This document shows, in pieces, positions 10,394-31,718 of a stretch of 64,000 nucleotides of DNA. The stretch comes from an uncultured candidate division Zixibacteria bacterium. GTDB lineage: Bacteria; Zixibacteria; MSB-5A5; GN15; FEB-12. Numbering within the stretch: the stretch's first letter is position 1; each line of letters starts with the position of its first letter. The stretch covers positions 64,001 to 128,000 of the forward strand of contig CAWDXE010000007.1 of the NCBI GenBank assembly GCA_963806185.1, in the 5' to 3' direction. The notes under the pieces are model-generated. The model had not been told where the DNA came from, made no database searches, and saw nothing but the letters and a program-made list of their open reading frames with translations. The position numbers and the translations under genes are program-made.

Positions 10394-10419
10394 GACAGAC
10401 ATCCTTTGGTTATTAAACA

Positions 10420-10513
10420 CGGAAGGGGTAGGAATCGAACCTACCAAGGACGATGCGATCGCCCCACGCTCGGCTTTGAAGGCCGGGACCGCCACCAGAC
10501 GGCATCCTCTTCC
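10420..10513 (-). tRNA. selC: tRNA-Sec (UCA)
   Basis: Reverse complement GGAAGAGGATGCCGTCTGGTGGCGGTCCCGGCCT-TCA-AAGCCG...long variable arm...GGTAGGTTCGATTCCTACCCCTTCCG; 94 nt. Confidence 0.92.
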
Positions 10514-10687
10514 GTCCGTAGTATATGGGGCCGATGCGCGGTGGGCAATTGGTTTCATGCCGGACGCGGGTTCGGCGGCGTCCTGTAACCTGCTGGCTAT
10601 TTGTGGGTTATAGAGATCGAAGATTGCCTCGATTTGGGTGTACTTTTCACTTTCGCGAAGGGGGAGAACGATATATCCTTACGGCCC

Positions 10688-15328: not shown

Positions 15329-15414
15329 GGAGAGGTGGCTGAGTGGTCGAAAGCGGCGGTCTCGAAAACCGTTATACCCTTCGGGTATCTAGGGTTCGAA
15401 TCCCTACCTCTCCG
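15329..15414 (+). tRNA. tRNA-Ser (CGA); island integration site
   Basis: GGAGAGGTGGCTGAGTGGTCGAAAGC...GCGGTCT-CGA-AAACCGT...GGGTTCGAATCCCTACCTCTCCG. Confidence 0.96.
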
Positions 15415-15417
15415 CAT
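15397..15417 (+). repeat. attL (21-bp direct repeat, tRNA 3' end)
   Basis: Identical to 31698-31718. Confidence 0.9.
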
Positions 15418-15716
15418 GTAACATATTGATATATAATTGGTTATGGCCATTTCTTGGCCGCCTGCCTTTTCGTACCCTCTCCGCTGTCAATATCTTTAAA
15501 GTTAGTCATTGTAGCAATGAGAACTACTCTAATTGCTGTTGATTCGATCCTCCATCCTTTTGCACTTCGAAGCTTTTAACAAACTATTGCACTGAATATC
15601 ACCAATCGAATAACGACACAAATGGCCCTCACGGCCTCCATCGATAAGACTTTGCCTGATTGTGATAAACTACTCTGATGCGACGGAACAACGGGTAAAT
15701 GCTCGCCAAAGATGTC

Positions 15717-15762
15717 TTGACACTCTGCCGATATGAATATATATTCGCCTAGGCGAATATAT
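15717..15762 (+). promoter_or_regulatory. Sigma70 promoter with overlapping palindromic operator (probable ArsR site)
   Basis: TTGACA (15717), 17 bp, TATATT (15740); perfect 24-bp palindrome ATATATTCGCCTAGGCGAATATAT at 15739-15762. Confidence 0.8.
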
Positions 15763-15817
15763 GAATATGTTGCGGTCTGGTTTACGGACTGAGTTAATAG
15801 AGTGAGAGAGTTTGAAA

Positions 15818-16414
15818 ATGAAAATGTCAGTGTATGATCCTGCTATGTGCTGCCCGACTGGTGTCTGTGGTCCGGCAGTCGATCCGAAACTGCCGCGCTT
15901 TGCAGCCGACCTCGAGTGGCTTGGAAATCAAGGCATAACCGTTGAACGGTTCAACCTGGCCCAGCAACCGGCGGCCTTCGCACAGAATCCGGTGGTAAAG
16001 GAAATGCTCGGTAAGCAGGGTAACGACTGCCTGCCGCTGATCTTGGTGGATGGCGCAGTCGTGTCCACGGTCAGTTATCCAACCCGAGAGAAACTCGCTG
16101 CCTTTGTCAATCTCTCGTATGCTCGGGTCCCCAGCATCTTCACCGATGCAGTTTCCGAATTGGTCGCCATTGGGGCCGCGATTGCCTCAAACTGCGAACC
16201 ATGTTTCCGCTTCCACTATGATAAGGCGCGGAAATTGGGTGTCTCTAAAGAGGATATGGCTCTGGCCGTCGCAATCGCTCAGGGCGTCAAAGAAACTCCG
16301 GCCAAGTCGATTCTTGAAATGGCTGATCGTTACCTCAAATCGAAAAGTACCGACGAGCCAATGACTCTTCCCATGGCAGAAGTCGCCTCCAAATCCAGCG
16401 GCAAATGCTGCTGA
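15818..16414 (+). CDS. arsD: Arsenic metallochaperone ArsD fused to a C-terminal AhpD/CMD-like domain
   Basis: YDPAMCCPTGVCG and RFNLAQQP (ArsD), then ELVAIGAAIASNCEPCFRFH (CMD CxxC); ends in CC. Confidence 0.88.
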   Translation: MKMSVYDPAMCCPTGVCGPAVDPKLPRFAADLEWLGNQGITVERFNLAQQPAAFAQNPVVKEMLGKQGNDCLPLILVDGAVVSTVSYPTREKLAAFVNLSYARVPSIFTDAVSELVAIGAAIASNCEPCFRFHYDKARKLGVSKEDMALAVAIAQGVKETPAKSILEMADRYLKSKSTDEPMTLPMAEVASKSSGKCC

Positions 16415-16427
16415 CCAAGGCTAGATT

Positions 16428-18227
16428 ATGTTGATACTAGATAACCCATCGAGGAATCTGTTCTTCACCGGCAAAGGGGGTGTGGGAAAGACATCGTTAG
16501 CCTGTGCCACGGCGGTGTCCCTTGCCGATCGCGGCAAGAGGGTGCTACTGGTAAGCACAGATCCCGCATCAAATCTCGATGAAGTCCTTAATGTGCACCT
16601 TTCCGCCGTCCCGACCGCGATACCGGACGCTTCCAACTTGTTCGCGCTCAATATCGATCCCGAAGCGGCTGCTCACGCCTATCGGGAGCGAATGGTCGGG
16701 CCGTATCGGGGCCTGCTTCCTGAAGCAGCCGTAGCCAGTATAGAAGAGCAGCTGTCTGGCGCCTGCACCACTGAGATTGCCGCGTTCGACGAATTCGCCA
16801 AACTACTGGGCGATCCCGCTGCGACGGCCGACTTCGACCACATCGTTTTCGATACCGCGCCGACCGGCCATACTCTGCGCTTACTGCAGTTGCCGGCAGC
16901 GTGGAGCGACTTCATTGAGTCGAGCGCGGGTGGGACCTCGTGCCTGGGTCCGCTATCCGGATTGCAGACGCAGCGTGAACTCTACGCGCAAACGGTCCGC
17001 GCATTGGCCGATCCAGCTATCACGACTCTGGTTCTCGTAAGCAGGCCGGAGCGAGCGGCTCTGCAGGAAGCGGACCGGACGCGACAGGAACTGTCGGCTG
17101 TCGGCGTTGGAAATCAGCACTTCATTCTCAATGGGACGTTCGTTGCCCAGGACCGCGAAGATCCAATTGCTTTGGCGCTTGAAGAACGTGGCAGACAAGC
17201 GGTGAACTCCATGCCGGCAGCTCTGGCACAACTTCCGCAGTCTCGAACACAGCTTCTTCCCTTTGGTCTGATTGGCGTACCTTCGTTACGGGCTCTGGTA
17301 AATGCGGACCCCCGAGAAACGACTCCAGCGGCACCTGCTCGACAAACTGCTGGAATCACTTTGCCGGCGCTTTCGACGCTGATTCGCCAATTGGAGACAA
17401 GCAAGCGCGGCGTGATAATGGTTATGGGCAAAGGGGGAGTAGGCAAGACCACTGTCGCGGCCGCTATTGCGGTAGCACTGGCCGATCATGGCCATACCGT
17501 TCACCTGACTACCACCGACCCGGCCGGACAGGTGCAGTCGGCACTGGCAAATAGTGTGGCGGGGCTGACCGTCAGCCGCATCGACCCCGTTGCCGAAACC
17601 GAGGCGTATCGTCTGGAAGTAATGCGCACTGCCGGTGGCAAGCTGGATGATCAGGGACTTCGTCTGTTAGAGGAAGAGCTACGCTCTCCCTGCACCGAAG
17701 AGATGGCGGTCTTTCGCGCGTTCGCGCAGAAGGTTGCCGAAGGGGCAAATGAATTTGTCGTGCTTGATACCGCTCCGACCGGTCACACGCTCCTGCTCCT
17801 GGATGCTACTGAGGCCTACCATCGGCAGGTCTCGCACACTATGAGTGATGTGCCGGATTCCGTTCGGCAGCTACTCCCGCGGCTGCGGGATGCGGAGTAC
17901 ACCAAGGTGCTCATCGTCACCTTGCCGGAAGCGACACCGGTCCATGAGGCCGCGCAACTCCAGAAGGATTTGAAACGAGCCGAAATCACGCCGCACGCCT
18001 GGGTGATCAACCAGTGTCTGACGCCGCATGCGGTCTCTGACCCCGTCTTGAAAACCAGGCAGGCGAGAGAAGGTCTGTTTATCGACGAGGTGACGCAGGT
18101 GCACAGCACAACGGCGTACATGATCCCATGGATGGAAGCAGGAGCAACTTTGGCAGACAGCCTGCGCAAAGTGGTGGCCGCCACGGCGGTAAGCGACAAA
18201 CCTATGGTCAGCAGACAAGGAAGTTAG
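16428..18227 (+). CDS. arsA: Arsenical pump-driving ATPase
   Basis: Two GKGGVGKT P-loops, two DTAPTGHT motifs, SGACT and SCLGP. Confidence 0.96.
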
Positions 18228-18232
18228 GAATT

Positions 18233-19306
18233 ATGGCGCAGCAGGAAGCAAAGCGATTGTCGTTTCTTGACCGCTACTTGACACTCTGGATTTTCCTGGG
18301 CATGGGAGCAGGCGTGGCACTGGGATGGCTGCTACCGCAGACCGAGCAGTTCATCAACCGCTTTCAGGTTGGCACGACCAATGTCCCGATCGCCATTGGT
18401 CTCATTCTGATGATGTATCCTCCGTTGGCGAAAGTGAAGTACGAGGAGCTTGGAGACGTATTCCGCAACACGAAAGTTCTCGGGCTCTCACTATTACAGA
18501 ATTGGGTGATCGGACCGATTCTCATGTTTTTCCTGGCGATTGCGTTTCTCTCGGGCTATCCCGAGTACATGGTCGGGTTGATCATGATCGGCCTGGCGCG
18601 CTGCATTGCCATGGTGATTGTCTGGAACGAATTGGCCAAGGGAGACACCGAGTATGCCGCTGGACTAGTGGCATTCAACTCGATTTTCCAGGTGCTCTTT
18701 TATTCAGTCTATGCCTGGGTGTTCATCACCGTGCTGCCGCCACTGTTCGGTCTCAGCGGCTCAGTAGTCGATGTCAGTATGAGGCAAATCGCCGAATCGG
18801 TATTCATTTATCTGGGGATTCCCTTTATCGCAGGTATGCTCACCCGCCTGATCGCGCTCAAGACCAAAGGACGGGAATGGTACGAGCAAAAGTTCATTCC
18901 GAAAATCAGTCCAATTACTTTGATCGCTCTGCTCTTTACAATCGTTGTGATGTTCAGTCTCAAAGGGAATCTGATCGTGCAAATCCCGCTTGACGTGGTG
19001 AGGATCGCGGTGCCACTCTTGATCTATTTTGTCGTCATGTTCCTGGTTAGTTTTTGGATGGGTCGCAAAGCGGGCGCAGACTACTCAAAAACGGCCACCC
19101 TGTCCTTCACGGCCGCCAGTAACAACTTCGAGCTGGCGATTGCTGTGGCCGTGGCGGTATTTGGCATTAACTCCGGCGCGGCCTTTGCGGCCGTTATTGG
19201 ACCGCTTGTCGAGGTGCCCGTTCTCATTGGATTGGTCAATGTGGCACTCTATTTCCAGCGAAAATACTTCGCACAACCGAACGCAGCTATGGAGGCGGCA
19301 CGATGA
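18233..19306 (+). CDS. acr3: ACR3-family arsenite efflux permease
   Basis: [39 protein letters not shown]. Confidence 0.96.
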
Positions 19307-19641
19307 AGACTCACGAAGCGTTTAAGGGGCTGTCTGATCCGACGCGGCTTCGCATCGTCGCGCTTCTGCTGGAGCAGGAACTCTGCGTGTGTGACTTGAT
19401 GGCCGTCTTGCAATTGCCTCAATCAACAGTGTCCCGTCATATGATACGCTTGAAAGCCGCGGGGCTGGTCGCGGATCGACGCGCGGGCAAATGGGTGCAC
19501 TATTGCCTGCTTGAAAATTCCCTGGTAAGCGATCTGCGGCGCCTGCTGCAGAACCATTTGGCCGGCGCTGAGCCCTATAAGAAAGACGCAACTGCCTTGC
19601 GACGATATGTCCGAAACGGGAACTGTGCTGAAAACTCGTGA
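19303..19641 (+). CDS. arsR: ArsR/SmtB transcriptional repressor (1)
   Basis: [26 protein letters not shown]. Confidence 0.92.
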
Positions 19642-19654
19642 GAAGATCGAACCG

Positions 19655-20095
19655 ATGAACGACAACAAGACACTGCGTATTTTGGTGCTGTGCACCGGCA
19701 ATTCCTGTCGATCGCAGATCGCCGAAGGGTACTTTCGTCACTATGGAGGAGACAGAGTGGAAGTCTTCTCTGCCGGGCTTGAGCCAAAGGGAGTCAACCC
19801 ACGGGCGATTCAGGTGATGAAGGAAGTTGGCATTGATATATCGCAGCATGCTTCAGACCACCTGTCAAAGTACATGGGCCAGTCATTTGATTACGTCATT
19901 ACTGTCTGCGATAACGCGGCGGCCAATTGCCCGGTGTTTCCGGGAGCCGGAACGAAACTGCACTGGCCGTTTGAAGATCCCGCCGACGCGACTGGCACGG
20001 AAGAACAGGTGTTGGCGGTTTTCCGTCAAATACGTGACGAAATTGGTGCAAAGGTGAAGAACTGGTTGAGGACAACCCAAGAGCTGGCCCGATAG
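19655..20095 (+). CDS. arsC: Arsenate reductase (thioredoxin-coupled, LMW-PTP fold)
   Basis: CTGNSCRS P-loop; TVCD...NCPVFP; HWPFEDP. Confidence 0.93.
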   Translation: MNDNKTLRILVLCTGNSCRSQIAEGYFRHYGGDRVEVFSAGLEPKGVNPRAIQVMKEVGIDISQHASDHLSKYMGQSFDYVITVCDNAAANCPVFPGAGTKLHWPFEDPADATGTEEQVLAVFRQIRDEIGAKVKNWLRTTQELAR

Positions 20096-20247
20096 CTTTT
20101 CGGGATATGGCTTCCTTGTCCGACCAAAGGCAATGCGCAGTTTGTGAGTAAATGAACAACAGAGGCGCGACGCCTGTTTATAAAATGGAGAAAGAAGTCG
20201 ATTACATGGGTCCACGATAGTAAGGTAACCACAGAATGGAGGAACAG

Positions 20248-20997
20248 ATGTTCAGGAAAATCAGCATTGTGACCGTTGCTCTGCTGCTTATGGCGGTAGC
20301 GGCCTTTGGCGCGGCACAACAACAACTGGAAGCGGCCGCAAAATCCGGCAACGTGGCCTTCGTCTTGGTGTATGACGCCACTGCTACCACTCTCGAGCAG
20401 GCGCGTCAGCTAACCGCGCAGGCGGTCGGCCGCGTGCCCGGATCGATAGCGATCGAAGTCAATCGCGGTGACGCCTCCGAAGCGGATTTTGTGAAGCGAT
20501 ATGGGCTGGCTACTGCTCCGGTACCGCTCATCTTAGTGAGCTCATCTGCCGGCGTCATCACCGGCGGTGTCATCGCCGCCCAGGCCAATGTTGACCAACT
20601 GGTGAAACTTGTACCATCACCCAAGAAAGCTGAAATCATCCAGGCGTTGTCGCAGGGAAATGCCGTGTTCATTACCGCGAGTCGGAAGAGCATGGCGACA
20701 GCAACAACTGTCAATAGCGCATGCGCCGCCGCGTGCCAACAGATGGCTGGGAAATCGGTACAAGTGACTGTTGATATGGATGATCCAAAAGAGGCCGGTT
20801 TCCTGACCGAGATGAAAGTCAATCTGCAATCAGCAGAACCGATCACGTTGGTAGCCAACGCTCAGGGGCAGATTGCCGGGATGTACACTGGGGCCATGCA
20901 GGTTACCGATCTCGTGACCGCCGCGACCAAGAAAGTTGGCGGCTGTTGCCCATCGACTGTTGCCAAACCGGACGCTTCATGCGCGCCTAAGAAGTAA
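20248..20997 (+). CDS. Secreted/periplasmic Cys-containing protein upstream of ABC exporter
   Basis: Signal peptide; CAAAC and C-terminal GGCCP...SC. Confidence 0.7.
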   Translation: MFRKISIVTVALLLMAVAAFGAAQQQLEAAAKSGNVAFVLVYDATATTLEQARQLTAQAVGRVPGSIAIEVNRGDASEADFVKRYGLATAPVPLILVSSSAGVITGGVIAAQANVDQLVKLVPSPKKAEIIQALSQGNAVFITASRKSMATATTVNSACAAACQQMAGKSVQVTVDMDDPKEAGFLTEMKVNLQSAEPITLVANAQGQIAGMYTGAMQVTDLVTAATKKVGGCCPSTVAKPDASCAPKK

Positions 20998-21008
20998 GGA
21001 AAGCCAAA

Positions 21009-22229
21009 ATGAAGCTTCAAACTATACTCTGGCGCGAGCTATGGCTGCGAAAGTCGCAGCTCGTGTCGGCCTTACTTGGAATCACGCTTGGCATCGCCGT
21101 AATAGTTGGCATTCAATCGGTTTCAGCGGTTTCCGAGACAGCGGTCAAGGTAAGTCTCGACAACTTGGGGGCTAATATCCTGGTGCTGCCTCAAGCCGCG
21201 TCGGTTGATGACTACTATTCGTCTGATATTGACGCACCGACGTTTTCCGAAGACTATGTAGAACGACTTGCCACGTCGATGTTGCCGGGTGTCGACAACC
21301 TTTCCCCAAAGCTAACCCGGCGCGTGAAAGTTGGCGATGTGCCAATTATCCTCACTGGTATTCTACCAGCTAACGAGCTGGCTGCGAAACCGATTTGGCA
21401 AACGGCCGGTTTGGTCGGGGACGGTCTGAATGCAGCGTGTGATCCTGGCACCACGGCTAATCAGTCGTTTGGATATCAGGACGAACGGCTGCAACGCAAG
21501 GCGGTCGACTCGCTGGCGACCACTGATGTGTTGGTCGGTAGCAGCGCTGCGCAGCGGTTGAATCTGCGCGAGGGACAGACCGTGACAATTGAAGGTAAGA
21601 CTTTTACTGTTGCCCGCGTTATCCCAGAGACCGGCACCATTGACGACAGTCGCGTGTATGCCCACCTGCACACGGTCCAGCAGCTTTTGGGGACTGGCCG
21701 GCAGGTCAGCGCCATCGAGATCATGGGGTGCTGCTCAGCTATCTCGGATGGACTCCTTGGCAAGCTCCGCAATATCTTGCCCGATACGCGGATTACGACG
21801 ATCAATCAGATTGTCAGCACGCAAATCAGGACCAATCAGCTCATGAGCAAGATCTCCATGGTCTTTCTGGTGATCATCATCATTGTCGGAGCCATAACGA
21901 TTGGCAACTACATGTGGGCGAATGTCGAAGAGCGACGTCGCGAGATCGGCATTCTGATCACCATCGGTACGAAGCGTTCGGCCATCTACCGTCTCTTCTT
22001 GTCAAAAGCAGTGTTCCTGGGTGTAATTGGCGGCATTGGCGGTTTCATCGTTGGGACCGGGGCTGCAATGATTCTTGGACCGCAACTAGCTGGGCTACAT
22101 GTTTCGCCGATGCCACTTTATTTGCTGTTATCAGTGGTCGTAGCAGTGTCGATAGCATTGCTTGGCAGTATTCTTCCGGTTTACCGGGCAGCGAGATTTG
22201 ACCCAGCTGTCATCATGCAGGAGGTGTGA
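21009..22229 (+). CDS. ABC transporter permease, MacB/FtsX family
   Basis: N-terminal TM, large periplasmic domain (contains GCCS), ERRREIGIL, three C-terminal TMs, PVYRAARFDP. Confidence 0.9.
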   Translation: MKLQTILWRELWLRKSQLVSALLGITLGIAVIVGIQSVSAVSETAVKVSLDNLGANILVLPQAASVDDYYSSDIDAPTFSEDYVERLATSMLPGVDNLSPKLTRRVKVGDVPIILTGILPANELAAKPIWQTAGLVGDGLNAACDPGTTANQSFGYQDERLQRKAVDSLATTDVLVGSSAAQRLNLREGQTVTIEGKTFTVARVIPETGTIDDSRVYAHLHTVQQLLGTGRQVSAIEIMGCCSAISDGLLGKLRNILPDTRITTINQIVSTQIRTNQLMSKISMVFLVIIIIVGAITIGNYMWANVEERRREIGILITIGTKRSAIYRLFLSKAVFLGVIGGIGGFIVGTGAAMILGPQLAGLHVSPMPLYLLLSVVVAVSIALLGSILPVYRAARFDPAVIMQEV

Positions 22230-22898
22230 GTGATGTTTGCCATTCACAACTTGAGCAAGGTCTACACCTCTCAACACGGCACGGTTCGGGCACTGGATGA
22301 CATATCGCTGACCGTCGAGAAAGGCAGTTTTGTTGCCGTGACCGGCGGGTCCGGTTCGGGCAAGACGACCATGTTGTTGACGCTTGGCGGTCTCATTCGA
22401 CCGACGAGCGGAACGGTGTCGTTCTCCGGCAAGACCATTTACACTATGTCCGAGCCAGAGCTTGCCGAGTATCGCAATCGCAAGATTGGTTTTGTACTAC
22501 AGACATTCAATCTGATCCCATACCTTACAGCGTTGGAAAACGTCATGCTTCCGATGATATTTTCTTCTAACGGCAACGGCACCGCGCAAGCCCAGGCGGA
22601 AGCATTGCTGGAGAAAGTAGGCCTAAAAGATCGCGAAGAACATCTGCCGAGAGAGCTGTCCGTGGGGCAACAGCAGCGGGTGGCTATTGCGCGAGCTCTC
22701 GCCAATAGTCCGGAGGTAATTCTTGCTGACGAGCCAACGGGCAATCTGGATCCCAGTCTGTCACTCGAAGTGCTGAAGATTCTCAAACGGCTCAATGAAG
22801 AAGAGGGACGAACGGTTATCATGGTGACTCACAGCCCGGAAGCGGCGACATTCGGGAATCGCCAGGTTCGCCTAAAAGACGGTAAGGTACACGACTGA
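22230..22898 (+). CDS. ABC transporter ATP-binding protein, LolD/MacB family
   Basis: GGSGSGKT, LSVGQQQRVAIARAL, ADEPTGNLD. Confidence 0.95.
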   Translation: MMFAIHNLSKVYTSQHGTVRALDDISLTVEKGSFVAVTGGSGSGKTTMLLTLGGLIRPTSGTVSFSGKTIYTMSEPELAEYRNRKIGFVLQTFNLIPYLTALENVMLPMIFSSNGNGTAQAQAEALLEKVGLKDREEHLPRELSVGQQQRVAIARALANSPEVILADEPTGNLDPSLSLEVLKILKRLNEEEGRTVIMVTHSPEAATFGNRQVRLKDGKVHD

Positions 22899-22899
22899 T

Positions 22900-23836
22900 A
22901 TGGGGAAACACGACAACAAGCGCGACCGGCACGGCAAAAAGCACTCCGGCAAGCGCAGCCACAGGCAATCGGTAGGTAGCGGGACCTCCCGCCATTGGGT
23001 GGGATGGGCAGCGCTCGCAGTTGTCCTGGTCGCCGGCGTAGGCATCGCATGGACGCTTTTCAAAGAAGAAAGTCCGAGAATTACTGCGTCTACTCCGGTG
23101 ACCAAGCTTCCGGAGTCAGTGTTACCAAAGAATCTGGAGACCAGGCCCGCTGAGTCGAAGCCAGTACCGCCACCGGCTGCGCCGCGTCTCGACATTCCGG
23201 AACCGGAATTTGATTTCGGCTTCGTGCCACAGAATGCGAAGATAAGTCACGTGTTCTGGCTACACTCGGCCGGCACCGACACACTCAAGATCATCAAGGT
23301 CAACCCCGGCTGAGGCTGCACCCAAGCGCCCTTGGAAAAGGACGCACTGGCTGTCGGCGACAGCACTACCCTTGAGATTATCTTCAGTACCGGAAGCTAC
23401 AGTAACCAGGTGAGCAAAGCGCCGTCGATATTGACCAACGAAGCGCAGGGGGCCAAAAACGTCACCATCAAGGCCAACATCGTCACAAAGCCGGACTCGA
23501 CTTATCCGATCGTCATTCAACCGCCCAAGATCGAATTTGCGAGCCGGCGACAGCACCGAAACGATGGAGTTTACGATCACGAACAAGTCGGACGGAGCGC
23601 TAATTCCGAGAATTGTTAGCGCACCGCGCCGTTTTGTCAGTATAAACTTGCCGCAGTCTATTCCGGCGGGCGAATCTACCATAGGGAGTGTTACACTCAA
23701 GAAGGCCGGACTTAAGACGGGTTTCGAGAAGTCAGTGACCGTCCAATTAAACGATCAGGCGAAGAGCCGCTTTACCATTCCGATCAAGCGATCGGTGGTT
23801 GGCCAAGCTGTTGTTGTTCCGGCCGGAGGGCATTGA
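22900..23836 (+). CDS. Membrane-anchored DUF1573-like (Ig-fold) probable selenoprotein; UGA at 23311-23313; +1 frameshift near 23537
   Basis: FDFGFV...HVFWL...LKIIKVNPG-TGA-GCTQAP aligns with the family's C-G-C-T motif; the frame continues through ORF 23332-23619 and then 23537-23836. Confidence 0.75.
23326..23345 (+). promoter_or_regulatory. Candidate bacterial SECIS hairpin
   Basis: GCGCCCTT-GGAA-AAGGACGC (7 bp, one mismatch); G-first apical loop 20 nt after the UGA. Confidence 0.55.
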
Positions 23837-23920
23837 GTTTCGTGACGGCCCAGGACACATAGCGCATTTGCATCATTTGAGGATAGTCGAACAGTCTACC
23901 CAAATAACAGGAGGATTCCA

Positions 23921-24379
23921 GTGAAACGATTTATTATAACGATGGCCCTTTTCCTTATGGCCATTACAATGGCCTGTAACAAATCATCGGAAACTCCTGC
24001 TCGCCAAGGTGCGGGCACTAATTCGGGCGCAGCACAGCCTGCCACTGCATCTCCCGATTTGTCCAAGGCACCACCTGTCACCGTGGCTAATCCTCCTGCG
24101 GCTACACCACAAACTCCCTCTGGGTATGCTACTGCTCCGGGCATGAATCCTCCGCACGGTCAACCGAGTCATCGCTGTGATATTCCCGTTGGGGCACCAC
24201 TTAATTCGCCGCCAGGTACACAGTCGACACCGGTCGTTCCTTCACAGCCCAATGCCACTGTCCAGACTCCGCCAACTACGACGGCTCCGGGCATGAATCC
24301 ACCGCATGGACAGCCGAATCATCGCTGTGATATTCCCGTAGGAGCGCCCCTCAGCTCAGCCCCTTCGCAGCCGAAGTAA
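23921..24379 (+). CDS. Pro-rich lipoprotein with two 24-aa His/Cys repeats
   Basis: Lipobox TMAC; TAPGMNPPHGQP(S/N)HRCDIPVGAPL twice (24131-24202, 24281-24352); GGAGG RBS. Confidence 0.8.
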   Translation: MKRFIITMALFLMAITMACNKSSETPARQGAGTNSGAAQPATASPDLSKAPPVTVANPPAATPQTPSGYATAPGMNPPHGQPSHRCDIPVGAPLNSPPGTQSTPVVPSQPNATVQTPPTTTAPGMNPPHGQPNHRCDIPVGAPLSSAPSQPK

Positions 24380-24437
24380 TTGTGCTGGCTACAGTTAAGA
24401 GGAGAGCGAAAATTCGTGAGAAATTCTGTTGATCTTG

Positions 24438-24461
24438 TTGGTAATTTGGCGATATTACCAA
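24438..24461 (+). promoter_or_regulatory. Inverted repeat upstream of second arsR (probable operator)
   Basis: TTGGTAAT-N8-ATTACCAA; a related TTTGGC-N6-GCCAAA site lies at 24835-24852. Confidence 0.55.
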
Positions 24462-24491
24462 GTATAAGGAAATAGCGAAGGAATTCAAAGT

Positions 24492-24818
24492 ATGGATAAT
24501 AAGACTAAAGCACATTTCGAGGCCAAGGCCAGAATTATTAAGGCGATGGCGCATCCGACGAGGCTCTTTATTGTGGATGAGCTGTCGCGAAAGGAACGGT
24601 GTGTATGCGATCTGACCGAAATGATCGGCGCGGATACATCGACCGTGTCCAAACATCTGTCCATTCTAAAAGCGGCCGGGATAGTGTCCGATGACAAGCG
24701 CGGTCTGCAGGTCTTCTACTCCCTGAAGGTGCCGTGCATCTTGAATTTCTTCGGATGTGTTTCGCAGGTGCAGAAGCTGTCGGCGAAGGAGCAGGTCGCG
24801 CTGGTCGTACGAAAGTAG
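24492..24818 (+). CDS. arsR: ArsR/SmtB transcriptional repressor (2)
   Basis: KAMAHPTRL, ERCVCDL, STVSKHLSILK. Confidence 0.9.
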   Translation: MDNKTKAHFEAKARIIKAMAHPTRLFIVDELSRKERCVCDLTEMIGADTSTVSKHLSILKAAGIVSDDKRGLQVFYSLKVPCILNFFGCVSQVQKLSAKEQVALVVRK

Positions 24819-24878
24819 TTTTTTTGGGTCCATCTTTGGCTGTTTGGCCAAATAGACATATGAAAATAGGCGTTTGAT

Positions 24879-26180
24879 ATGAAATGGAAAGCAGAGTGGA
24901 AGCCCCTGACCCTAATAATTATCATATTCCTGGTCAGTTTCTATCTGCCGGTCGGCAAACCGCGTTTTGACAATGCGGTTACTGAATCGTTACAACTGGT
25001 AAAATGGTACGCGCAAGAGCATGTTCTACTCTGCCTGATACCGGCGTTCTTCATTGCCGGAGCGATTGGAGTCTTTGTCAGCCAGGCTTCAGTCATGCGC
25101 TACCTGGGAGCCAAAGCCAACAAGGTTCTCGCCTACGGTGTGGCGTCGATCTCTGGAACCATTCTGGCAGTATGCTCATGCACGGTGCTCCCCCTGTTTG
25201 CGGGTATCTATCGGATGGGCGCAGGGCTCGGCCCGGCCAGTGCCTTTCTCTACTCCGGACCGGCAATCAACGTGCTGGCCATATTTCTGACCGCGCGGAT
25301 TCTCGGGATCGAAATGGGTGTGGCCCGCGCAGTCGGCGCGGTCGTGTTCAGCGTAATCGTTGGGCTCATCATGCATTTCATCTACCGCAAAGAGGAAACG
25401 GCCAAAGCTGACGCTCAAATGGCTCTGCCCGATCCACCGCCGACGCGCCCGCTCTGGCAGACGATACTCTATTTTGCTTCAATGATAGCCATACTCGTCT
25501 TCGCCAACTGGGGCAAGTCAAGCGAACCAGTCGGCATCTGGAATGCAATTTACGAACTCAAATGGTATCTGACTGCCTTGTCAGCTGCGGCCCTCGGATT
25601 GATGCTGGCTACCTGGTTTAACGTCACCTGGTGGAAAATTGGCGCGGTCGCAGTTCCGGTCGCGATCCTAGGCCTGGTCTTTCGCGAATATCCGTTGATT
25701 CCGTTCGCTGCGGGGTTTGTAGGGCTCTCCATCATTACCAGCACCGATGACGGCGAGATGGGGAGCTGGTTCGAACAGACCTGGGGATTCGCCAAGCAGA
25801 TTCTGCCGCTACTTCTCTTTGGCGTTCTCGTCGCAGGACTTCTCTTGGGCAGGCCCGGACACGAGGGAATCATTCCTTCCGAGTGGATCAGTCGCTCGGT
25901 GGGCGGCAACTCACTCTGGGCGAATCTCTTTGCCTCGGTAGCAGGCGCCTTTATGTATTTCGCCACGTTGACAGAGATCCCGATTCTGCAAGGTCTCCTG
26001 GGGAGCGGCATGGGTAAGGGTCCGGCGTTGGCGCTTTTGCTGGCCGGACCGGCGCTTTCTCTTCCGAGCATGCTAGTACTGCGGAGCATTATGGGCCTTA
26101 GAAAGACGGCAGTGTTTGTGAGTATCGTGGTAGTCATGGCTACTATCACGGGAATGACGTACGGCTATTTCTTTGGATAG
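24879..26180 (+). CDS. Permease, DUF318/ArsP-like
   Basis: Polytopic; AVCSCTVLPLF, FLYSGPAIN, YFATLTEIP, GPALSLPS. Confidence 0.82.
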   Translation: MKWKAEWKPLTLIIIIFLVSFYLPVGKPRFDNAVTESLQLVKWYAQEHVLLCLIPAFFIAGAIGVFVSQASVMRYLGAKANKVLAYGVASISGTILAVCSCTVLPLFAGIYRMGAGLGPASAFLYSGPAINVLAIFLTARILGIEMGVARAVGAVVFSVIVGLIMHFIYRKEETAKADAQMALPDPPPTRPLWQTILYFASMIAILVFANWGKSSEPVGIWNAIYELKWYLTALSAAALGLMLATWFNVTWWKIGAVAVPVAILGLVFREYPLIPFAAGFVGLSIITSTDDGEMGSWFEQTWGFAKQILPLLLFGVLVAGLLLGRPGHEGIIPSEWISRSVGGNSLWANLFASVAGAFMYFATLTEIPILQGLLGSGMGKGPALALLLAGPALSLPSMLVLRSIMGLRKTAVFVSIVVVMATITGMTYGYFFG

Positions 26181-26190
26181 GAGATACACA

Positions 26191-26424
26191 ATGAAACTGA
26201 TTCAAATCCTAGGCACGGGCTGTCCCAAGTGCAAGAAGCTCGAAGAGCAGACGCGCGAAGCGGCCAAGGCCATCGGCCTTGAGTGTGAGATCCTCAAGGT
26301 GACCGATATCGAGGCGATCATGCGCATGGGCGTGATGATGACCCCGGGGCTGGCAATCGACGGGCAGGTTGTTCTGTCTGGGAAAGTACCGTCGGTTGAT
26401 GAACTCAAAAAGATTCTGGCCTGA
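26191..26424 (+). CDS. Small redox-active disulfide protein (thioredoxin-like)
   Basis: IQILGTGCPKC, GVMMTPGLAIDG. Confidence 0.88.
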   Translation: MKLIQILGTGCPKCKKLEEQTREAAKAIGLECEILKVTDIEAIMRMGVMMTPGLAIDGQVVLSGKVPSVDELKKILA

Positions 26425-26437
26425 AAGGGAACCTCAG

Positions 26438-26929
26438 ATGAATAAGGCAAAAGTCGCAGCGATCCTCGTAGGCATCGCAGCAATGTGGGTGGGTGGATAC
26501 CTGTTGGCCAATGCGGGTAACGGAACAGCAGATTCGCCGTCCACCGTTTCTCCTACCGCCGCCACGACCGATAGCGTTACCGCTATACCCCACAAAGTCG
26601 TTGCCTACTATTTCCACGGCAATGTCCGCTGTGTGACCTGTCGAAAGATCGAAGCATACACCGGCGAAGCGATTGACAGCGGTTTCGCGGCTGAACTCAA
26701 ATCCGGATTGCTTGAGTGGCATGCGATAAACACGGATTCATCGCAAAACGAGCATTATTTGGAGGACTACCAATTATTCACCAAGTCGGTAATTCTCTCA
26801 GATCTGCACCATGGTAAGCAGACCCGCTGGAAAAACCTCGACAAGATCTGGACGCTGACGGGAAACAAGTCCGACTTCATGAAATACATCCGGGATGAAG
26901 TCAGGATCATGCTGGATTCAACCAAGTAA
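26438..26929 (+). CDS. ArsF-like thioredoxin-fold exported protein (1)
   Basis: N-terminal TM/signal; YYFHGNVRCVTCRKIE; WKNLDKIW. Confidence 0.75.
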   Translation: MNKAKVAAILVGIAAMWVGGYLLANAGNGTADSPSTVSPTAATTDSVTAIPHKVVAYYFHGNVRCVTCRKIEAYTGEAIDSGFAAELKSGLLEWHAINTDSSQNEHYLEDYQLFTKSVILSDLHHGKQTRWKNLDKIWTLTGNKSDFMKYIRDEVRIMLDSTK

Positions 26930-26943
26930 AGGAACGACAGACA

Positions 26944-27414
26944 ATGACCCCTCGCAAAATCATCACGTTTGTTCTGCTCCTTCTGGTTGGAGTGAGTATT
27001 GTCGTCTTCGTGGCGCGACAAACAGGTCTTATTTCCGCGGACCTGGTATCAATCGGTGCATCAGCGGATGCGCCCCGACACAAGGTCATCGCCTATTATT
27101 TCCACGGCACGGTGCGGTGCGAAACCTGCCTGAATATCGAGCACTACACCGACGAAGCACTCAAGACCTACTTTGCCGATGACCTGGCCGATGGCCGCTT
27201 GGAATGGCGCGTGATCAACCGCGAAGTACCACCCAATGAACACTTTGTACAGGACTATGGACTGTATTCTCAGGCTCTGATCATCATCGACTCAATACCG
27301 GGACAGAAAGCCGAATACAAAAACCTCGAGGCCATGTGGGATTACGCCCACGACAAACCGGCGTTTATGGCATGGGTGCGTGGTGAAGTCGATCAGTACC
27401 TGAGGAGGCTGTAG
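26944..27414 (+). CDS. ArsF-like thioredoxin-fold exported protein (2)
   Basis: YYFHGTVRCETCLNIE; paralog of the preceding gene. Confidence 0.75.
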   Translation: MTPRKIITFVLLLLVGVSIVVFVARQTGLISADLVSIGASADAPRHKVIAYYFHGTVRCETCLNIEHYTDEALKTYFADDLADGRLEWRVINREVPPNEHFVQDYGLYSQALIIIDSIPGQKAEYKNLEAMWDYAHDKPAFMAWVRGEVDQYLRRL

Positions 27415-28103
27415 TGGAGTCACTCTACGTTGCGGCTCTTTCGGCGATCTGGCTGGGCATACTGACTTCCATCAGCCCCTGTCCGCTCGCCACCAACATT
27501 GCGGCCGTTTCCTATATAGGCAAGCATGTGGCCAGTGGCCGGCATGCGGTGTGGTCCGGACTTCTCTATGTACTGGGCCGTCTCGTGACCTATGTGGCGG
27601 TGGGCGCGATCGTGACCGCTGGTGTTCTCTCCATTCCGGGCGTGTCGAATTTCCTGCAGAAGTACATGAACAGCTTGCTTGGCCCGGTCCTTATCCTGGT
27701 TGGACTCGTCTTGCTGAACTGGTTACCGATCAATATACCGGGCCTTACCCCCAGCGATAAAATGCAGGAACGCGCCTCACACGGGAGTCTTTGGGGTGCA
27801 TGTGCCCTTGGTGCCATCTTTGCGCTGTCGTTTTGCCCTGTGTCGGCGGCTCTGTTCTTCGGAAGTCTGATTCCGCTATCGGTTCAGCACCACTCATACT
27901 TACTCTTGCCATCGCTATACGGCTTCGGTACTGGATTGCCGGTGCTGGTGGTGGGCATTATGCTGGCCTATAGTGCTAAATCGGTGGGAAGGCTGTTTAC
28001 CGGTATCCAGCGCTTTGAGAGTTGGGTCCGCGTCATGACAGCGGTGATCTTTATTATCATCGGGATCTATATGATCCTGCGATACGTTTTTTACCTATTC
28101 TAA
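27414..28103 (+). CDS. ArsG-like / DsbD-CcdA family membrane protein
   Basis: LTSISPCPLATNIAA and ALSFCPVSA conserved Cys-Pro motifs. Confidence 0.8.
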   Translation: MESLYVAALSAIWLGILTSISPCPLATNIAAVSYIGKHVASGRHAVWSGLLYVLGRLVTYVAVGAIVTAGVLSIPGVSNFLQKYMNSLLGPVLILVGLVLLNWLPINIPGLTPSDKMQERASHGSLWGACALGAIFALSFCPVSAALFFGSLIPLSVQHHSYLLLPSLYGFGTGLPVLVVGIMLAYSAKSVGRLFTGIQRFESWVRVMTAVIFIIIGIYMILRYVFYLF

Positions 28104-28172
28104 TCATGGGCCGGTGCCGGGCAAGAGCTCGACGCCGCCACTTACGCAATTCAAACGCATGCAAATGTTCGA

Positions 28173-28215
28173 TTGACACTCGTGCGAGAATCCATATATT
28201 TCGATATATGTCGAA
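28173..28215 (+). promoter_or_regulatory. Sigma70 promoter and operator for the arsR-hgcAB operon (likely leaderless)
   Basis: TTGACA (28173), 16 bp, TATATT (28195); TTCGA-N6-TCGAA (28200-28215) overlaps the ATG at 28208. Confidence 0.65.
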
Positions 28216-28573
28216 CTATAGTACTAAGACCCTCAAGCGTGTTTCGCAACAGTTTGCCGCCCTGTCTAATCCCAACCGAGCCGCAATCTTTGCGCGACTG
28301 GCCGGTTGTTGTTGTGGAACGGCCGAGACCTGCAGACATGACGCCATGCGCACGTGCGTAGGAGATTTGGGAAAAGATCTCAGCATCGCCGCTTCGACGG
28401 TGTCTCACCATATCAAAGAGCTCCATCGGGCTGGTCTGATTAAGCTCGAACGATGTGGCAGAACGGTCAGATGTTGTGTTGATACAAAGACCGTGAAGGA
28501 AATGGCTGGATTTCTAGATGGCGCAACCGCAGCGGGACGACAAGCGCCGACGAACAAGCCGAAACGAGCCTGA
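28208..28573 (+). CDS. Cys-rich ArsR-family regulator (3) heading the hgcAB operon
   Basis: FAALSNPNR, GCCCG, CVGDL, ASTVSHHIKEL, RCC; eight Cys. Confidence 0.85.
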   Translation: MSNYSTKTLKRVSQQFAALSNPNRAAIFARLAGCCCGTAETCRHDAMRTCVGDLGKDLSIAASTVSHHIKELHRAGLIKLERCGRTVRCCVDTKTVKEMAGFLDGATAAGRQAPTNKPKRA

Positions 28574-28589
28574 CAATCGGAGGATAGAC

Positions 28590-29186
28590 GTGGACGATAT
28601 CAACAAAGACAATCTACCCGGCTGCTGTGAGGGTGGCCAGTGCTGCTCACCAACGCCAGGTGGCGATACCCGCAAACCTGACCGTTGGAAATCTCTGATG
28701 TTCTCGGGAGTGATTTTGCTGGCATGTGCAGTGGCAGCATACTCTCTGTTCTGGCGAAGTCCGGATGCCGCGACCTCTGCCTGTTGCCCGCCGGGATCAG
28801 CGGCCGCGGTAGCTTGTGGCTCGTCGGCGGTCATTCCGGTCTTCGACCACTCCATGGCTCCGGCGGGTTTGTCGCTGTATCTCTTGTTATCGGCGACCGA
28901 TTCGCTTAGCCAGCAGCAGTTCGCGGTAATAAGTGAAGTTCGAGGGGCCGTGGAGTCAAAGGGGTCGCGGTTGGAACTTGAGACGTTGAGGCCCAGCGAC
29001 GGCTTCTTTCCGGCAATGGTCAGTGGTCATGGTATCACTTCCTTTCCGGCATTTCTGGTGTTCGGACAGCGCGACAGTTTGACCCTGAGTCTCACGAGTT
29101 TTCGAAGCGATACGATATTGAGCGTCTTTGTCCTGCCAGCTGAATCGTCGGAGGTGTCAACTACGTCCGAAACTAACCCTCAATAG
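28590..29186 (+). CDS. Membrane-anchored protein with three Cys-Cys pairs
   Basis: GGAGG RBS + GTG; GCCEGGQCC, one TM, ACCPPG. Confidence 0.7.
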   Translation: MDDINKDNLPGCCEGGQCCSPTPGGDTRKPDRWKSLMFSGVILLACAVAAYSLFWRSPDAATSACCPPGSAAAVACGSSAVIPVFDHSMAPAGLSLYLLLSATDSLSQQQFAVISEVRGAVESKGSRLELETLRPSDGFFPAMVSGHGITSFPAFLVFGQRDSLTLSLTSFRSDTILSVFVLPAESSEVSTTSETNPQ

Positions 29187-29189
29187 CTG

Positions 29190-29895
29190 GTGAATGCGAT
29201 GGATTGGATAGAGCAAGTACTGCGATCCCCGGAATTCAGCATGGCTGCCCTGCCGGCGGCCCTCGTGCTGGGCCTGCTAACGGCAGTAACGTCGTGCTGC
29301 AATTTTGGCATCATCGCAGCTGTGGTAGGATATGCCGGAAGTCGCGACGAGCAGTATCATCGCCGCGACGCCGTCGTGACGGCCATTTCCTTCATGGTCG
29401 GCACGGTCGTGGCCCTCTCCGTGTTGGGGCTTCTCATCGGCCATGTCAGCGGACTAGCCGGAACCTCATTCAAACGCTACAGCACACTGATCATGGGGTT
29501 CGCTGTAATAATTGCCGGCCTGTGCCGCACTGAAGCTGCTGCCATTTCGATTGCCCTCCGTTAACTGGTCAAAAGTGAAGCGTCCCGGCGGTCGTTTCGG
29601 GTCGATTGTTTTCGGATTAGTCATCGGAACTGCGAGTATCGCGTGCACTGCAGCCTGCTGCGGCCCGCTGGTTCTCGTAGTCTTAGGCATGACCGCAATA
29701 GCGGGTCAGGCACTGCAGGGGGCAGTGATACTGGGGCTCTTTGCTATTGGCTACGGTCTTCCTCTGGCTGCGCTGATGCTTGGCGTTGGCCTCGGACGAA
29801 CCTCTGCGATTGCCCAGAAGTTGACTAAACCGATTCGCGTCGTTGCCGGATCGGGACTGCTTTTTGTGGGGTTCTGGTTACTCGCGACTATGTGA
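29190..29895 (+). CDS. CcdA/DsbD-like thiol-transfer membrane protein (+1 frameshift near 29522)
   Basis: ORFs 29190-29564 and 29512-29895; TSCCN and CTAACCGP at the positions of the two CcdA Cys motifs; FAIGYGLP. Confidence 0.72.
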
Positions 29896-29907
29896 GGATG
29901 CGCGGAT

Positions 29908-31062
29908 ATGCTTGACACACCAGACCGTGGTTTGCCGCCCTGTTCGCCTGATTGCTGCTCGCCGGTGCAGATCACTACTCTTCAAAGCCATCCCCGGGTG
30001 GCGATACGCATGCCCATTCCCAAAGATCCGTGGGTCATCGGAACGGTTGCATCGCCATTCGGGGAAATCCCTCAGGTTGATGCGAAGTTGCAGTGGCTCG
30101 ATACTCTTGGCTCCTGGAAGGCTCGATGGGGCATCGGGCGTTCGAATTACAGCGTCCAGCCGCGCCTCTATGCCGTCGGCAATCCCGCCAAAACATCACC
30201 GGTGTTCGTTACGGCCAACTATAAGATGAGTTTTGACCGTCTCCGGTCGAACCTGGCTGATATCGACGGCTGGATCCTGGTTCTGGATACCAAGGGCATC
30301 AACGTATGGTGCGCGGCTGGTAAGGGCACCTTTGGCACCGAGGAACTTATCCGTCGAGTTGAGGTAGAGGGTCTGAAGCAGATTGTGTCTCATCGCCGCC
30401 TGATTCTCCCGCAGTTGGGTGCCACCGGCGTCAGCGCGCACCACACGCGCGAGCGCAGCGGTTTCCACGTTTTCTACGGCCCCGTCCGGGCGAAGGATAT
30501 TCCAGAGTTCATGCAAGCCAGGATGAAGGCGACCGAAGCCATGCGGAAAATCACCTTTACGCTGGCCGAACGGGCAGTCCTGATCCCGATCGAGTTTGTA
30601 AACAATCTTAAATACGCGCTCTTCGCAGCTGCGTGCCTGCTGCTACTCACCGGCGTTGGGTTGGATATCTACTCTCTGGATCGAGTGAAGGATTTCGGCA
30701 TCACCAATGCCGGCTTGGTACTTCTGTCAACTTTGTGCGGTGCATTGTTGCCCGCGCTGCTTTTGCCGTGGTTACCGGGGCGGGCGTTTTCGTTCAAGGG
30801 AGCTGCTGCCGGGCTACTGCCAGCAATCGGCATCGCCGCTCTGATGTGGTGGCATCCGGAGACTTTTCGCAATCGGGTCAGCGGCACTAGCTGGATGTTC
30901 ATTTTCCCAGCGGTGTCGAGCTTTCTAGGGATGAACTTCACGGGTAGTTCGACTTATACGTCGTTGTCAGGCGTCAAGAAAGAGATGCGCGTTGCCTTGC
31001 CAGCACAGATTTCAGTCGCTGTGTGCGGACTCGTATTGTGGCTAGTAGGATTGTTCATATGA
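29908..31062 (+). CDS. hgcA: Mercury methylation corrinoid protein HgcA
   Basis: TANYKMSFD, diagnostic cap helix GINVWCAAGKGTFG, LPQLGA, C-terminal TMs, NFTGSSTYTSLSGVKKEM; hgcB adjacent. Confidence 0.97.
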   Translation: MLDTPDRGLPPCSPDCCSPVQITTLQSHPRVAIRMPIPKDPWVIGTVASPFGEIPQVDAKLQWLDTLGSWKARWGIGRSNYSVQPRLYAVGNPAKTSPVFVTANYKMSFDRLRSNLADIDGWILVLDTKGINVWCAAGKGTFGTEELIRRVEVEGLKQIVSHRRLILPQLGATGVSAHHTRERSGFHVFYGPVRAKDIPEFMQARMKATEAMRKITFTLAERAVLIPIEFVNNLKYALFAAACLLLLTGVGLDIYSLDRVKDFGITNAGLVLLSTLCGALLPALLLPWLPGRAFSFKGAAAGLLPAIGIAALMWWHPETFRNRVSGTSWMFIFPAVSSFLGMNFTGSSTYTSLSGVKKEMRVALPAQISVAVCGLVLWLVGLFI

Positions 31063-31355
31063 CGACCAAGTATCTCTCGGGCGTTGTAACGCTCGAGCTT
31101 AATTCGGATAAGTGCAATGGCTGCGGTATGTGCCTACAGGTTTGTCCGCACGCCGTCTTTGCGCTCGAGAATAAGCGGGCGAAGATTGTCGATCTCGATG
31201 CATGTATGGAATGTGGGGCTTGTGCTTTGAATTGCCCAGAAGGCGCGATTAGCGTTCGGTCCGGAGTTGGATGTGCAGCGGGCATTTTGACCGGAGCTTT
31301 ACGAGGAACTGAACCCACTTGCGGTTGCGGAGATGACTCGGGGGGTTGCTGCTAA
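31059..31355 (+). CDS. hgcB: Mercury methylation ferredoxin HgcB
   Basis: CNGCGMCLQVCP and CMECGACALNCP 2x[4Fe-4S], GVGCA, C-terminal CC; ATGA overlap with hgcA. Confidence 0.96.
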   Translation: MTTKYLSGVVTLELNSDKCNGCGMCLQVCPHAVFALENKRAKIVDLDACMECGACALNCPEGAISVRSGVGCAAGILTGALRGTEPTCGCGDDSGGCC

Positions 31356-31697
31356 CATATGGCCTCAAGTGTGCACCGTAGTATTTCAACAGACATGTTG
31401 TATGATGTTGAAGTCACTTGTATAGCGGTTCAGCTAAAGTTGCATATCACAAAGCTATTTGCCAGAGTTGGGGCCGGAGCTTGCGAATATCTGTTGAATG
31501 CCTCGAAGCTCTTAAAACGGAATGCGCAATCCATGATCGGATTGTGGCGTTTGGGACCAATTGGGGACCGTGGGACTTCAAAACAGTCAATACGCACTAC
31601 GAATCATTCAAAACTATTTGATGACGCAATCAATTGGTGGAACTCACCTTACGGCGTAATTGACACAATGACAATCATTTATGGGAAACATACAGTA

Positions 31698-31718
31698 CGA
31701 ATCCCTACCTCTCCGCAT
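31698..31718 (+). repeat. attR (21-bp copy of tRNA-Ser 3' end)
   Basis: CGAATCCCTACCTCTCCGCAT identical to 15397-15417. Confidence 0.9.

What the first reader, a model, noticed from the sequence alone, without database searches (positions are those of the whole stretch)
22900..23836. Hidden selenoprotein: DUF1573-like protein with U-G-C motif and SECIS-like hairpin
Seen: the ORF 'stops' at TGA 23311-23313 in ...KVNPG-TGA-GGC-TGC-ACC, and the same frame continues with domain-like sequence. A hairpin GCGCCCTT-GGAA-AAGGACGC follows at 23326-23345, and tRNA-Sec is encoded at 10420-10513. Established: this Ig-like family carries a C-G-C-T motif, and bacterial SECIS elements lie just 3' of the UGA. 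Inference: an exported Sec-containing protein is part of the ABC module in an As/Hg island. Selenols bind Hg very strongly. Standard gene callers would split this gene into three pieces.
Basis: partly seen in the sequence, partly recalled or inferred. Interest (0 to 1): 0.78.

Follow-up and report, generated by a model that had tools for sequence, protein, structure and literature searches.

The report
Selenoprotein recruited into arsenic-resistance islands
The stop codon inside this gene is very likely read as selenocysteine, giving a predicted membrane-anchored protein of an already catalogued selenoprotein family, and such selenium-form copies sit again and again beside an unnamed transporter in arsenic-resistance islands, where they would likely help handle arsenic outside the cytoplasm.

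Summary
Confirmed. TGA 23311-13 lies on the conserved Cys of a DUF1573 domain. Read-through restores the domain (E 9e-17). Of 106 homologous sites, 104 are TGA, TGC or TGT. The genome has selA, selB, selD and tRNA-Sec. DUF1573 with a UGC motif is already a listed bacterial selenoprotein family, and this scan met it before on other DNA (75 findings). Two extras. (2) Beside the Cys-Cys MacB-type ABC module, 21 of 42 loci in this class carry DUF1573, and all 22 copies are TGA forms from several lineages. The function is untested; an arsenic-binding selenol/thiol accessory is my best guess.

The parts
22900..23836 (+). Sec-form DUF1573 gene; about 311 aa once the extra base near 23541-43 is discounted (inferred)
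   Evidence: the ortholog in L076 is one frame with only the TGA
22993..23049 (+). Predicted single transmembrane anchor (residues 32-50) after a basic N-tail (15 of 32 residues K/R/H)
   Evidence: N-in/C-out topology inferred from the positive-inside rule
23197..23481 (+). Ig-like domain 1 (PF07610 DUF1573) carrying U138-G-C140
   Evidence: ortholog model is two beta-sandwiches, pLDDT 93.8
23311..23313 (+). In-frame TGA, predicted Sec138
23317..23319 (+). Cys140, invariant partner Cys
   Evidence: invariant column C49 in alignment A1
23326..23345 (+).
23350..23364 (+). Hairpin 2, GCTGTC-GGC-GACAGC, loop 42 nt after UGA; nearly fixed in TGA genes, mostly missing in Cys genes
23541..23543 (+). 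One extra base (frameshift), most likely an assembly error
   Evidence: 4 contigs from 3 runs lack one base here; tuf, rpoB and fusA are also broken in this assembly
23549..23782 (+). Ig-like domain 2 (weak PF07610 match, no Cys)
20236..20997 (+). Exported tandem thioredoxin-fold protein with a Cys-rich tail; core partner of the permease
   Evidence: 80 of 80 permease loci; fold
21009..22229 (+). MacB/FtsX-type permease with an invariant G-C-C (C241-C242) in the predicted periplasmic domain
22230..22898 (+). ABC ATPase (LolD/MacB-like); its stop is one base before the DUF1573 start
15397..31718 (.). ars/hgcAB genomic island bounded by a perfect 21-bp repeat of the tRNA-Ser 3' end (15397-15417 and 31698-31718)
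15717..15745 (+). Promoter-like site (11 of 12 consensus matches) ahead of arsD
   Evidence: consensus match only
10419..10514 (-). tRNA-Sec (selC), outside the island

Best explanation
The gene very likely encodes one selenoprotein, predicted to be anchored in the inner membrane with two Ig-like domains facing outward, whose Sec-Gly-Cys loop likely acts as a selenol/thiol clamp for trivalent arsenic beside a Cys-Cys MacB-type ABC transporter. Shown: the TGA lies on the family's Cys column; the Sec machinery is present; two downstream hairpins track the TGA form; TGA-form copies sit repeatedly beside the module. Inferred, step by step: SelB binds the hairpin region and inserts Sec138 (about 0.96); the anchor puts the loop in the periplasm (about 0.85); the gene is an optional, selected accessory of the module (about 0.75); the loop catches As(III) or organoarsenicals and passes them to, or cycles them with, the Cys pairs of the permease and the thioredoxin-fold partner (about 0.45).
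For: Read-through raises PF07610 from no hit plus 1.8e-6 (halves) to 9.1e-17. Codons at the site in 106 distinct homolog hits: TGA 42, TGC 44, TGT 18, AAC 2; no TAA, TAG or TGG. An in-genome paralog has TGA at the same site next to a Cys twin. selA, selB and selD are over their cut-offs, and selD has its own TGA. selA is in 59 of 61 phylum genomes. TGA closes 516 of 1091 long ORFs here, so there is no general recoding. Hairpin 2 has at least 6 bp in 74 of 84 TGA versus 4 of 70 Cys genes; hairpin 1 has at least 5 bp in 42 of 84 versus 7 of 70. Sec and Cys forms interleave on the tree (18 changes, at least 6 forced). Module link: 21 of 42 permease-selected loci in the class carry DUF1573 and all 22 copies have TGA, against 52 TGA in the 150 listed family hits (my count). 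One clade of island copies is rejected (p-AU 1.6e-32). L080 has a 95%-identical permease but a 32%-identical TGA-form DUF1573 in the same slot. Eight Bacteroidota loci carry a Cys-form DUF1573 by the same module. acr3 is near 55 of 80 loci.
Against: No experiment, no proteomics. The gene is dispensable: 21 of 42 class loci and 66 of 80 cross-phylum loci lack it in the stretch fetched. TGA-form DUF1573 genes occur in most relatives in ordinary tandem clusters with no ars gene seen within 1.5 kb, so the family's basic job is not arsenic-specific. Island copies come from only about four lineages, so 22 of 22 overstates independence. The Ig fold gives no function. Two chalcogen ligands are one short of the three-thiol As(III) sites of ArsR/ArsD (recalled). 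One genome with a TGA-form copy (G095, 100% complete, 110 contigs) showed no selA or selB, though its selD keeps a TGA; another (G073) has only a selA piece at a contig end. Hairpin 2 shows almost no covariation within its subfamily because it is nearly invariant.
Confidence: 0.45

Rival explanations
1. Sec is inserted, but the protein is an envelope thiol-redox or folding helper that keeps the island's many exported Cys-rich proteins in the right redox state. It would be fed by the ArsG/CcdA-ArsF relay and would not bind arsenic itself.
For: The island encodes two CcdA/DsbD-type membrane proteins, two ArsF proteins and a small thioredoxin. CcdA and thioredoxin genes in ars operons were noted in PMC2963123 (passages). 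The fold resembles PapD-like periplasmic chaperone domains. The family is general in this lineage.
Against: It has no thioredoxin fold and no CxxC motif. Its position tracks the ABC module more tightly than arsG or ccdA: 18 of 26 copies directly follow the ATPase and 5 lie upstream of the thioredoxin-fold gene.
Confidence: 0.27
2. Sec is inserted and the selenol serves mercury capture or delivery for HgcAB.
For: hgcA and hgcB pass the NCBIfam cut-offs in the same island, and the order is kept in L076. CU/CC motifs in HgcA and the SAO system are linked to heavy metals in 10.1101/2022.07.06.499078 (passages).
Against: hgcA is near 8 of 80 module loci and 1 of 46 class loci, against acr3 in 31 of 46 (those stretches reach only about 5 kb, and hgcA lies 7 kb away here, so this undercounts). 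None of the 14 DUF1573-bearing loci showed hgcA. hgcAB beside ars genes is a known pattern (10.1101/2022.10.17.512643, passages).
Confidence: 0.1
3. It is a genuine selenoprotein that rides in the island as a passenger with an unrelated envelope role.
For: Half of the module loci lack it, and it has a close chromosomal TGA paralog.
Against: Several unrelated subfamilies fill the same slot, always in the TGA form within this class, and a Cys form does so in Bacteroidota.
Confidence: 0.14
4. The TGA is a true stop or a base-call error, and the gene is a pseudogene with two lesions.
For: There is a second break in the gene, and the assembly is error-prone.
Against: 84 distinct TGA sites in homologs at the same column, selected hairpins, an intact ortholog, and the second break is absent from related contigs.
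Confidence: 0.04

Closest known systems
'DUF1573 domain-containing protein' selenoprotein family, PF07610, motif UGC (tables of PMC9312934 and PMC13188914); probably the OS_HP2 family of PMC1976440 and NCBIfam NF041425 (that equation is my inference; the 2007 main text does not name DUF1573)
   Same: Same Pfam domain, same U-G-C motif, Cys-containing homologs, downstream hairpin.
   Different: Scores 52.7 bits against the NF041425 cut-off of 100. It has two Ig domains plus a membrane anchor, comes from a lineage whose named homologs are Zixibacteria, has a second distal hairpin, and is tied to an ars-linked ABC module.
SAO system (SaoABP etc.; bioRxiv 10.1101/2022.07.06.499078)
   Same: An ABC transporter with CC/CU-bearing extracytoplasmic parts, a thioredoxin-like partner, an ArsP-family exporter nearby, and an inferred metal(loid) substrate.
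   Different: SaoP is a MetI-like importer permease with Sec at the gate and SaoB is a substrate-binding protein. Here the permease is MacB/FtsX-type with Cys-Cys only (83 of 83 motif hits), there is no MerB-like lyase, and the Sec is on an Ig-fold accessory.
ars islands with ArsP, ArsE/F/G, CcdA and hgcAB (PMC2963123; bioRxiv 10.1101/2022.10.17.512643)
   Same: The same neighbouring genes.
   Different: In the passages I saw, neither paper mentions this ABC module or DUF1573. PMC4435449 counts only 5 ABC transporters in ars operons and does not name MacB or FtsX.
ASH/PapD-like Ig domains (Hydin, CEP192, VesB C-terminal domain, P. gingivalis 2QSV)
   Same: Fold: best Z 13.1, rmsd 1.8 A over 98 residues; Foldseek E about 1e-10.
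   Different: About 6-20% identity; a shared fold implies no function.

Membership tests
Bacterial selenoprotein | In-frame UGA aligned to Cys of homologs, with similarity on both sides | tested here: met
Bacterial selenoprotein | Host has selA, selB, selC and selD | tested here: met
Bacterial selenoprotein | SECIS consensus (3-9 nt loop, G in the first two loop positions, 16-37 nt spacing, MFE at most -7.5; PMC13188914) | tested here: met
   Hairpin 1: loop GGAA, spacing 20, -9.0 kcal/mol, checked by hand, not with bSECISearch. Hairpin 2 fails the spacing (42 nt).
Bacterial selenoprotein | Selenium shown in the protein | not testable with these tools
   needs 75Se labelling or mass spectrometry
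Bacterial selenoprotein | TGA supported by raw reads | tested here: inconclusive
   Related contigs cover the codon and no difference is listed there, but the table was cut (40 rows shown, 520 not).
DUF1573 (PF07610) UGC selenoproteins | PF07610 over the gathering score, with a U-G-C motif | tested here: met
   61.3 bits vs 26.1
OS_HP2 family, NCBIfam NF041425 | Score at least 100 bits | tested here: not met
   52.7 bits; none of 7 matches in the genome passes
SAO system | SaoL, SaoP and SaoB genes in the cluster | tested here: not met
   The 17 island proteins scanned hit no Sao model except a sub-threshold SaoE match on arsP; the permease is FtsX/MacB-type.
Thioredoxin-fold redox selenoproteins | Thioredoxin fold with UxxC/CxxU | tested here: not met
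   all-beta Ig sandwiches, U-x-C
Arsenic-resistance determinant | Arsenite induction and a resistance or binding phenotype | not testable with these tools
   only gene context

The most novel reading that the evidence does not exclude
A selenocysteine-armed arsenic-handling machine in the cell envelope: a Cys-Cys MacB-type ABC transporter with a tandem-thioredoxin partner, to which Sec-DUF1573 proteins have been recruited several times as an As(III)/organoarsenical clamp. It would give DUF1573 its first function and tie arsenic resistance to selenium supply in sediment bacteria. Its mRNA would also use a two-hairpin SECIS whose main SelB site lies beyond the accepted 37-nt limit.
Probability: 0.35. 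Interest if true: 0.75.

Novelty: new variant of a known kind. Interest (0 to 1): 0.47.

Why it matters
As annotation, it fixes a gene that databases cut at UGA: many homolog records begin just after it. The family is known as a selenoprotein but no function for it appears in the four papers that name DUF1573 (passages seen in two, listings only for the other two). The repeated, Sec-only recruitment to one arsenic-linked ABC module gives a concrete, testable function. The distal hairpin gives a simple test of whether bacterial SECIS spacing rules are too narrow, which would affect selenoprotein prediction.

Tried and rejected
A naive hexamer scan for other UGA read-through genes gave 784 noisy candidates and was dropped. 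No RNA holder was listed, which says nothing on expression. A focused read check of the TGA could not be obtained, so raw support for that codon stays open. Complex prediction (Cys-form DUF1573 with its cognate permease domain) was not available, so there is no verdict on binding. Sequence search of solved structures gave only E 0.06 or worse. Genome-wide TGA=Trp recoding is rejected: TGA is the commonest stop and the column holds Cys. Programmed frameshifting at 23541-43 is rejected: related contigs lack the base and orthologs are continuous. Hairpin 2 as a lineage-wide SECIS rule is rejected: SelD genes have it in 2 of 24 and Prx-like genes in 6 of 19, while the proximal hairpin (at least 6 bp) is in 22 of 24 and 14 of 19. 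tRNA-Sec as part of the island is rejected. The careful tree did not finish; quick trees on about 106 columns are poorly resolved. Not found in print: DUF1573 with arsenic or ABC context, and a second-hairpin SECIS (search 86, phrase 'second hairpin' in 0 of the 20 listed). I opened no supplements; BSepDB (PMC13326102) and deep-Sep (PMC12013277), seen as listings only, may already list these genes.

Full report
Observation. The ORF from 22900 meets TGA at 23311-13 in KVNPG-stop-GCT, and the frame stays open to 23619. Standard calling gives three ORFs. The piece before the TGA has no Pfam hit and the piece after it scores E 1.8e-6. Read through, the domain scores E 9.1e-17 over PF07610 positions 4-98.

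Sec evidence. The genome has selA (498 bits), selB (330 bits) and selD (390 bits, with its own TGA), all over their cut-offs. A paralog on the same contig has TGA at the same column, next to a tandem Cys twin. In 106 distinct tblastn hits from the loci held at that point the codon is TGA 42, TGC 44, TGT 18, AAC 2. A later, larger set held 84 TGA and 70 Cys sites; it required the motif, and 40 of its loci were fetched because they had a TGA, so it gives no frequency. TGA is the commonest stop of long ORFs here (516 of 1091). selA was found in 59 of 61 phylum genomes. The two without it both carry TGA-form DUF1573 and TGA-bearing selD; one has a selA piece at a contig end and the other showed neither selA nor selB, which may be an assembly gap or a real loss. 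Direct read support for the TGA is inconclusive, because the difference table was cut.

The second break. The third ORF is the second Ig domain, 47% identical to the Cys paralog's C-terminal half. Four contigs from three runs of three studies lack one base at 23541-43; one matches 151 bases with no other difference. Their depth is low, 2-4.5. Both tuf copies, rpoB and fusA are also broken by frameshifts in this assembly. The syntenic ortholog in L076 is one frame with only the TGA. I read the break as an assembly error, giving about 311 aa.

Protein. A basic N-tail and one hydrophobic stretch (residues 32-50) predict a membrane anchor. The ortholog's model is two beta-sandwiches (pLDDT 93.8, 97-row alignment) of the ASH/PapD-like type. 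The only Cys/Sec residues of the two domains are the U-G-C pair in a loop after the third strand; the second Cys is invariant.

RNA signal. Hairpin 1 meets the published bacterial consensus by hand check (loop G, spacing 20 nt, -9.0 kcal/mol; criteria from PMC13188914, passages). It lies where SelD and Prx-like genes of relatives have their hairpin. Against synonymous recoding it averages z -2.8 in 33 close TGA genes and -0.4 in 37 Cys genes. Hairpin 2 (23350-64) is more consistent: at least 6 bp in 74 of 84 TGA versus 4 of 70 Cys genes. Where the protein reads AVGDS, 60 of 62 TGA genes use the pairing codons and 0 of 3 Cys genes do, while neighbouring four-fold sites vary freely. In 24 loci holding both forms, 25 of 25 TGA copies have it and 0 of 34 Cys neighbours do (my count). 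A distant subfamily has a different stem at the same place with the same GG(T/C) in the loop. RNAalifold finds this stem in 68 TGA rows and not in 31 Cys rows, with almost no covariation because it is nearly invariant. Ten of 84 TGA genes lack a 6-bp stem. Its 42-nt spacing exceeds the 16-37 nt consensus. It is not a lineage-wide rule. Whether SelB binds hairpin 1, hairpin 2 or both is untested. Kin are not independent, but Sec and Cys forms interleave on the tree.

Context. The gene follows a tandem-thioredoxin-fold exported protein, a MacB/FtsX-type permease with an invariant periplasmic Cys-Cys and an ATPase. These lie inside a 16.3-kb island bounded by a 21-bp repeat of the tRNA-Ser 3' end, with arsDA, acr3, arsC, arsP, arsEFG and hgcAB. 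In the best 80 of 196 permease loci across phyla, the thioredoxin-fold gene is in 80, the ATPase in 78, acr3 in 55, arsC in 41 and hgcA in 8 (many contigs are short). DUF1573 is in 14: six TGA forms and eight Cys forms in Bacteroidota, the latter one clade. In the window's class, 56 of 285 genomes have the permease. I examined 46 of the 55 others, leaving out 8 with 45-49% identity and 1 partial. Of these 46, 25 carry DUF1573, 26 copies, all TGA. Dropping four loci first found through DUF1573 gives 21 of 42 and 22 copies. This set overlaps that. Island copies fall in at least three separated places, and one clade is rejected (quick tree; some 'other' rows have unknown context). L080 pairs a 95%-identical permease with a 32%-identical, longer TGA-form DUF1573, which looks like replacement in place. 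Against a core role: half the class loci lack the gene, and most TGA-form genes of relatives lie in ordinary tandem clusters.

Mechanism. I commit to a periplasm-facing selenol/thiol clamp for trivalent arsenic that serves the Cys-armed ABC module as an optional accessory (0.45). Rivals are an envelope redox or folding helper (0.27), a passenger (0.14), mercury handling (0.10) and a pseudogene (0.04). Sec insertion itself is about 0.96. Binding, substrate and transport direction are all inferred; no complex prediction was available.

What is known. Two reviews list 'DUF1573 domain-containing protein, UGC' as a selenoprotein family (PMC9312934 and PMC13188914, table passages). PMC1976440 lists OS_HP2 with two selenoprotein members (passages). 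The protein fails the NF041425 cut-off, so it belongs to the Pfam-level family but not to that model. The scan's earlier notes report Sec-DUF1573 in at least 68 genomes, one noting a distant RNA signal, and one describes a Cys-rich MacB module in an ars operon. A words search for DUF1573 selenoprotein with the arsenic ABC island found none. Verdict: a real selenoprotein of a known family, made a variant by its repeated Sec-only tie to an arsenic module and by its distal hairpin.

Noticed in passing
window 20236-22898: A three-gene module (tandem-thioredoxin exported protein, Cys-Cys MacB-type permease, ATPase) is tightly conserved in ars operons of several phyla. It has no specific Pfam or NCBIfam model for the first gene, and I found no paper on it. 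It may be more novel than the flagged gene.
   Followed up: partly
window 29908-31355: hgcA and hgcB pass the NCBIfam cut-offs (449 and 129 bits), predicting a mercury methylator. This HgcA has the N-terminal Cys-Cys form, not Cys-Sec.
   Followed up: partly
window 29190-29895: The CcdA/DsbD-like gene is split by a frameshift; the ortholog in L076 (11038-11733) is one ORF, so this is probably another assembly error.
   Followed up: partly
window 15397-15417 and 31698-31718: Perfect 21-bp direct repeat of the tRNA-Ser(CGA) 3' end bounding the island; no integrase was seen among the ORFs scanned.
   Followed up: partly
window 23921-24379: Predicted lipoprotein with two repeats of APGMNPPHGQPxHRCDIPVGAPL, no Pfam hit; recurs in a few module loci (L078, L085, L106, L307, L308, L330, L339).
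   Followed up: no
window 15812-16414: ArsD fused to a carboxymuconolactone-decarboxylase-like (CMD) domain with a Cys-rich tail.
   Followed up: no
G000:C7:586000-588350 (L001, L004, L006): Chromosomal tandem of three DUF1573 genes (CGC, UGC, CGC); this arrangement recurs in many relatives.
   Followed up: partly
L214, L215, L217, L219-L234: Several peroxiredoxin-like subfamilies of relatives have an in-frame TGA at the catalytic Cys with a proximal hairpin.
   Followed up: partly
G095, G073: TGA-bearing selD and DUF1573 but no full selA found; G095 also showed no selB. Assembly gap or recent Sec loss.
   Followed up: partly
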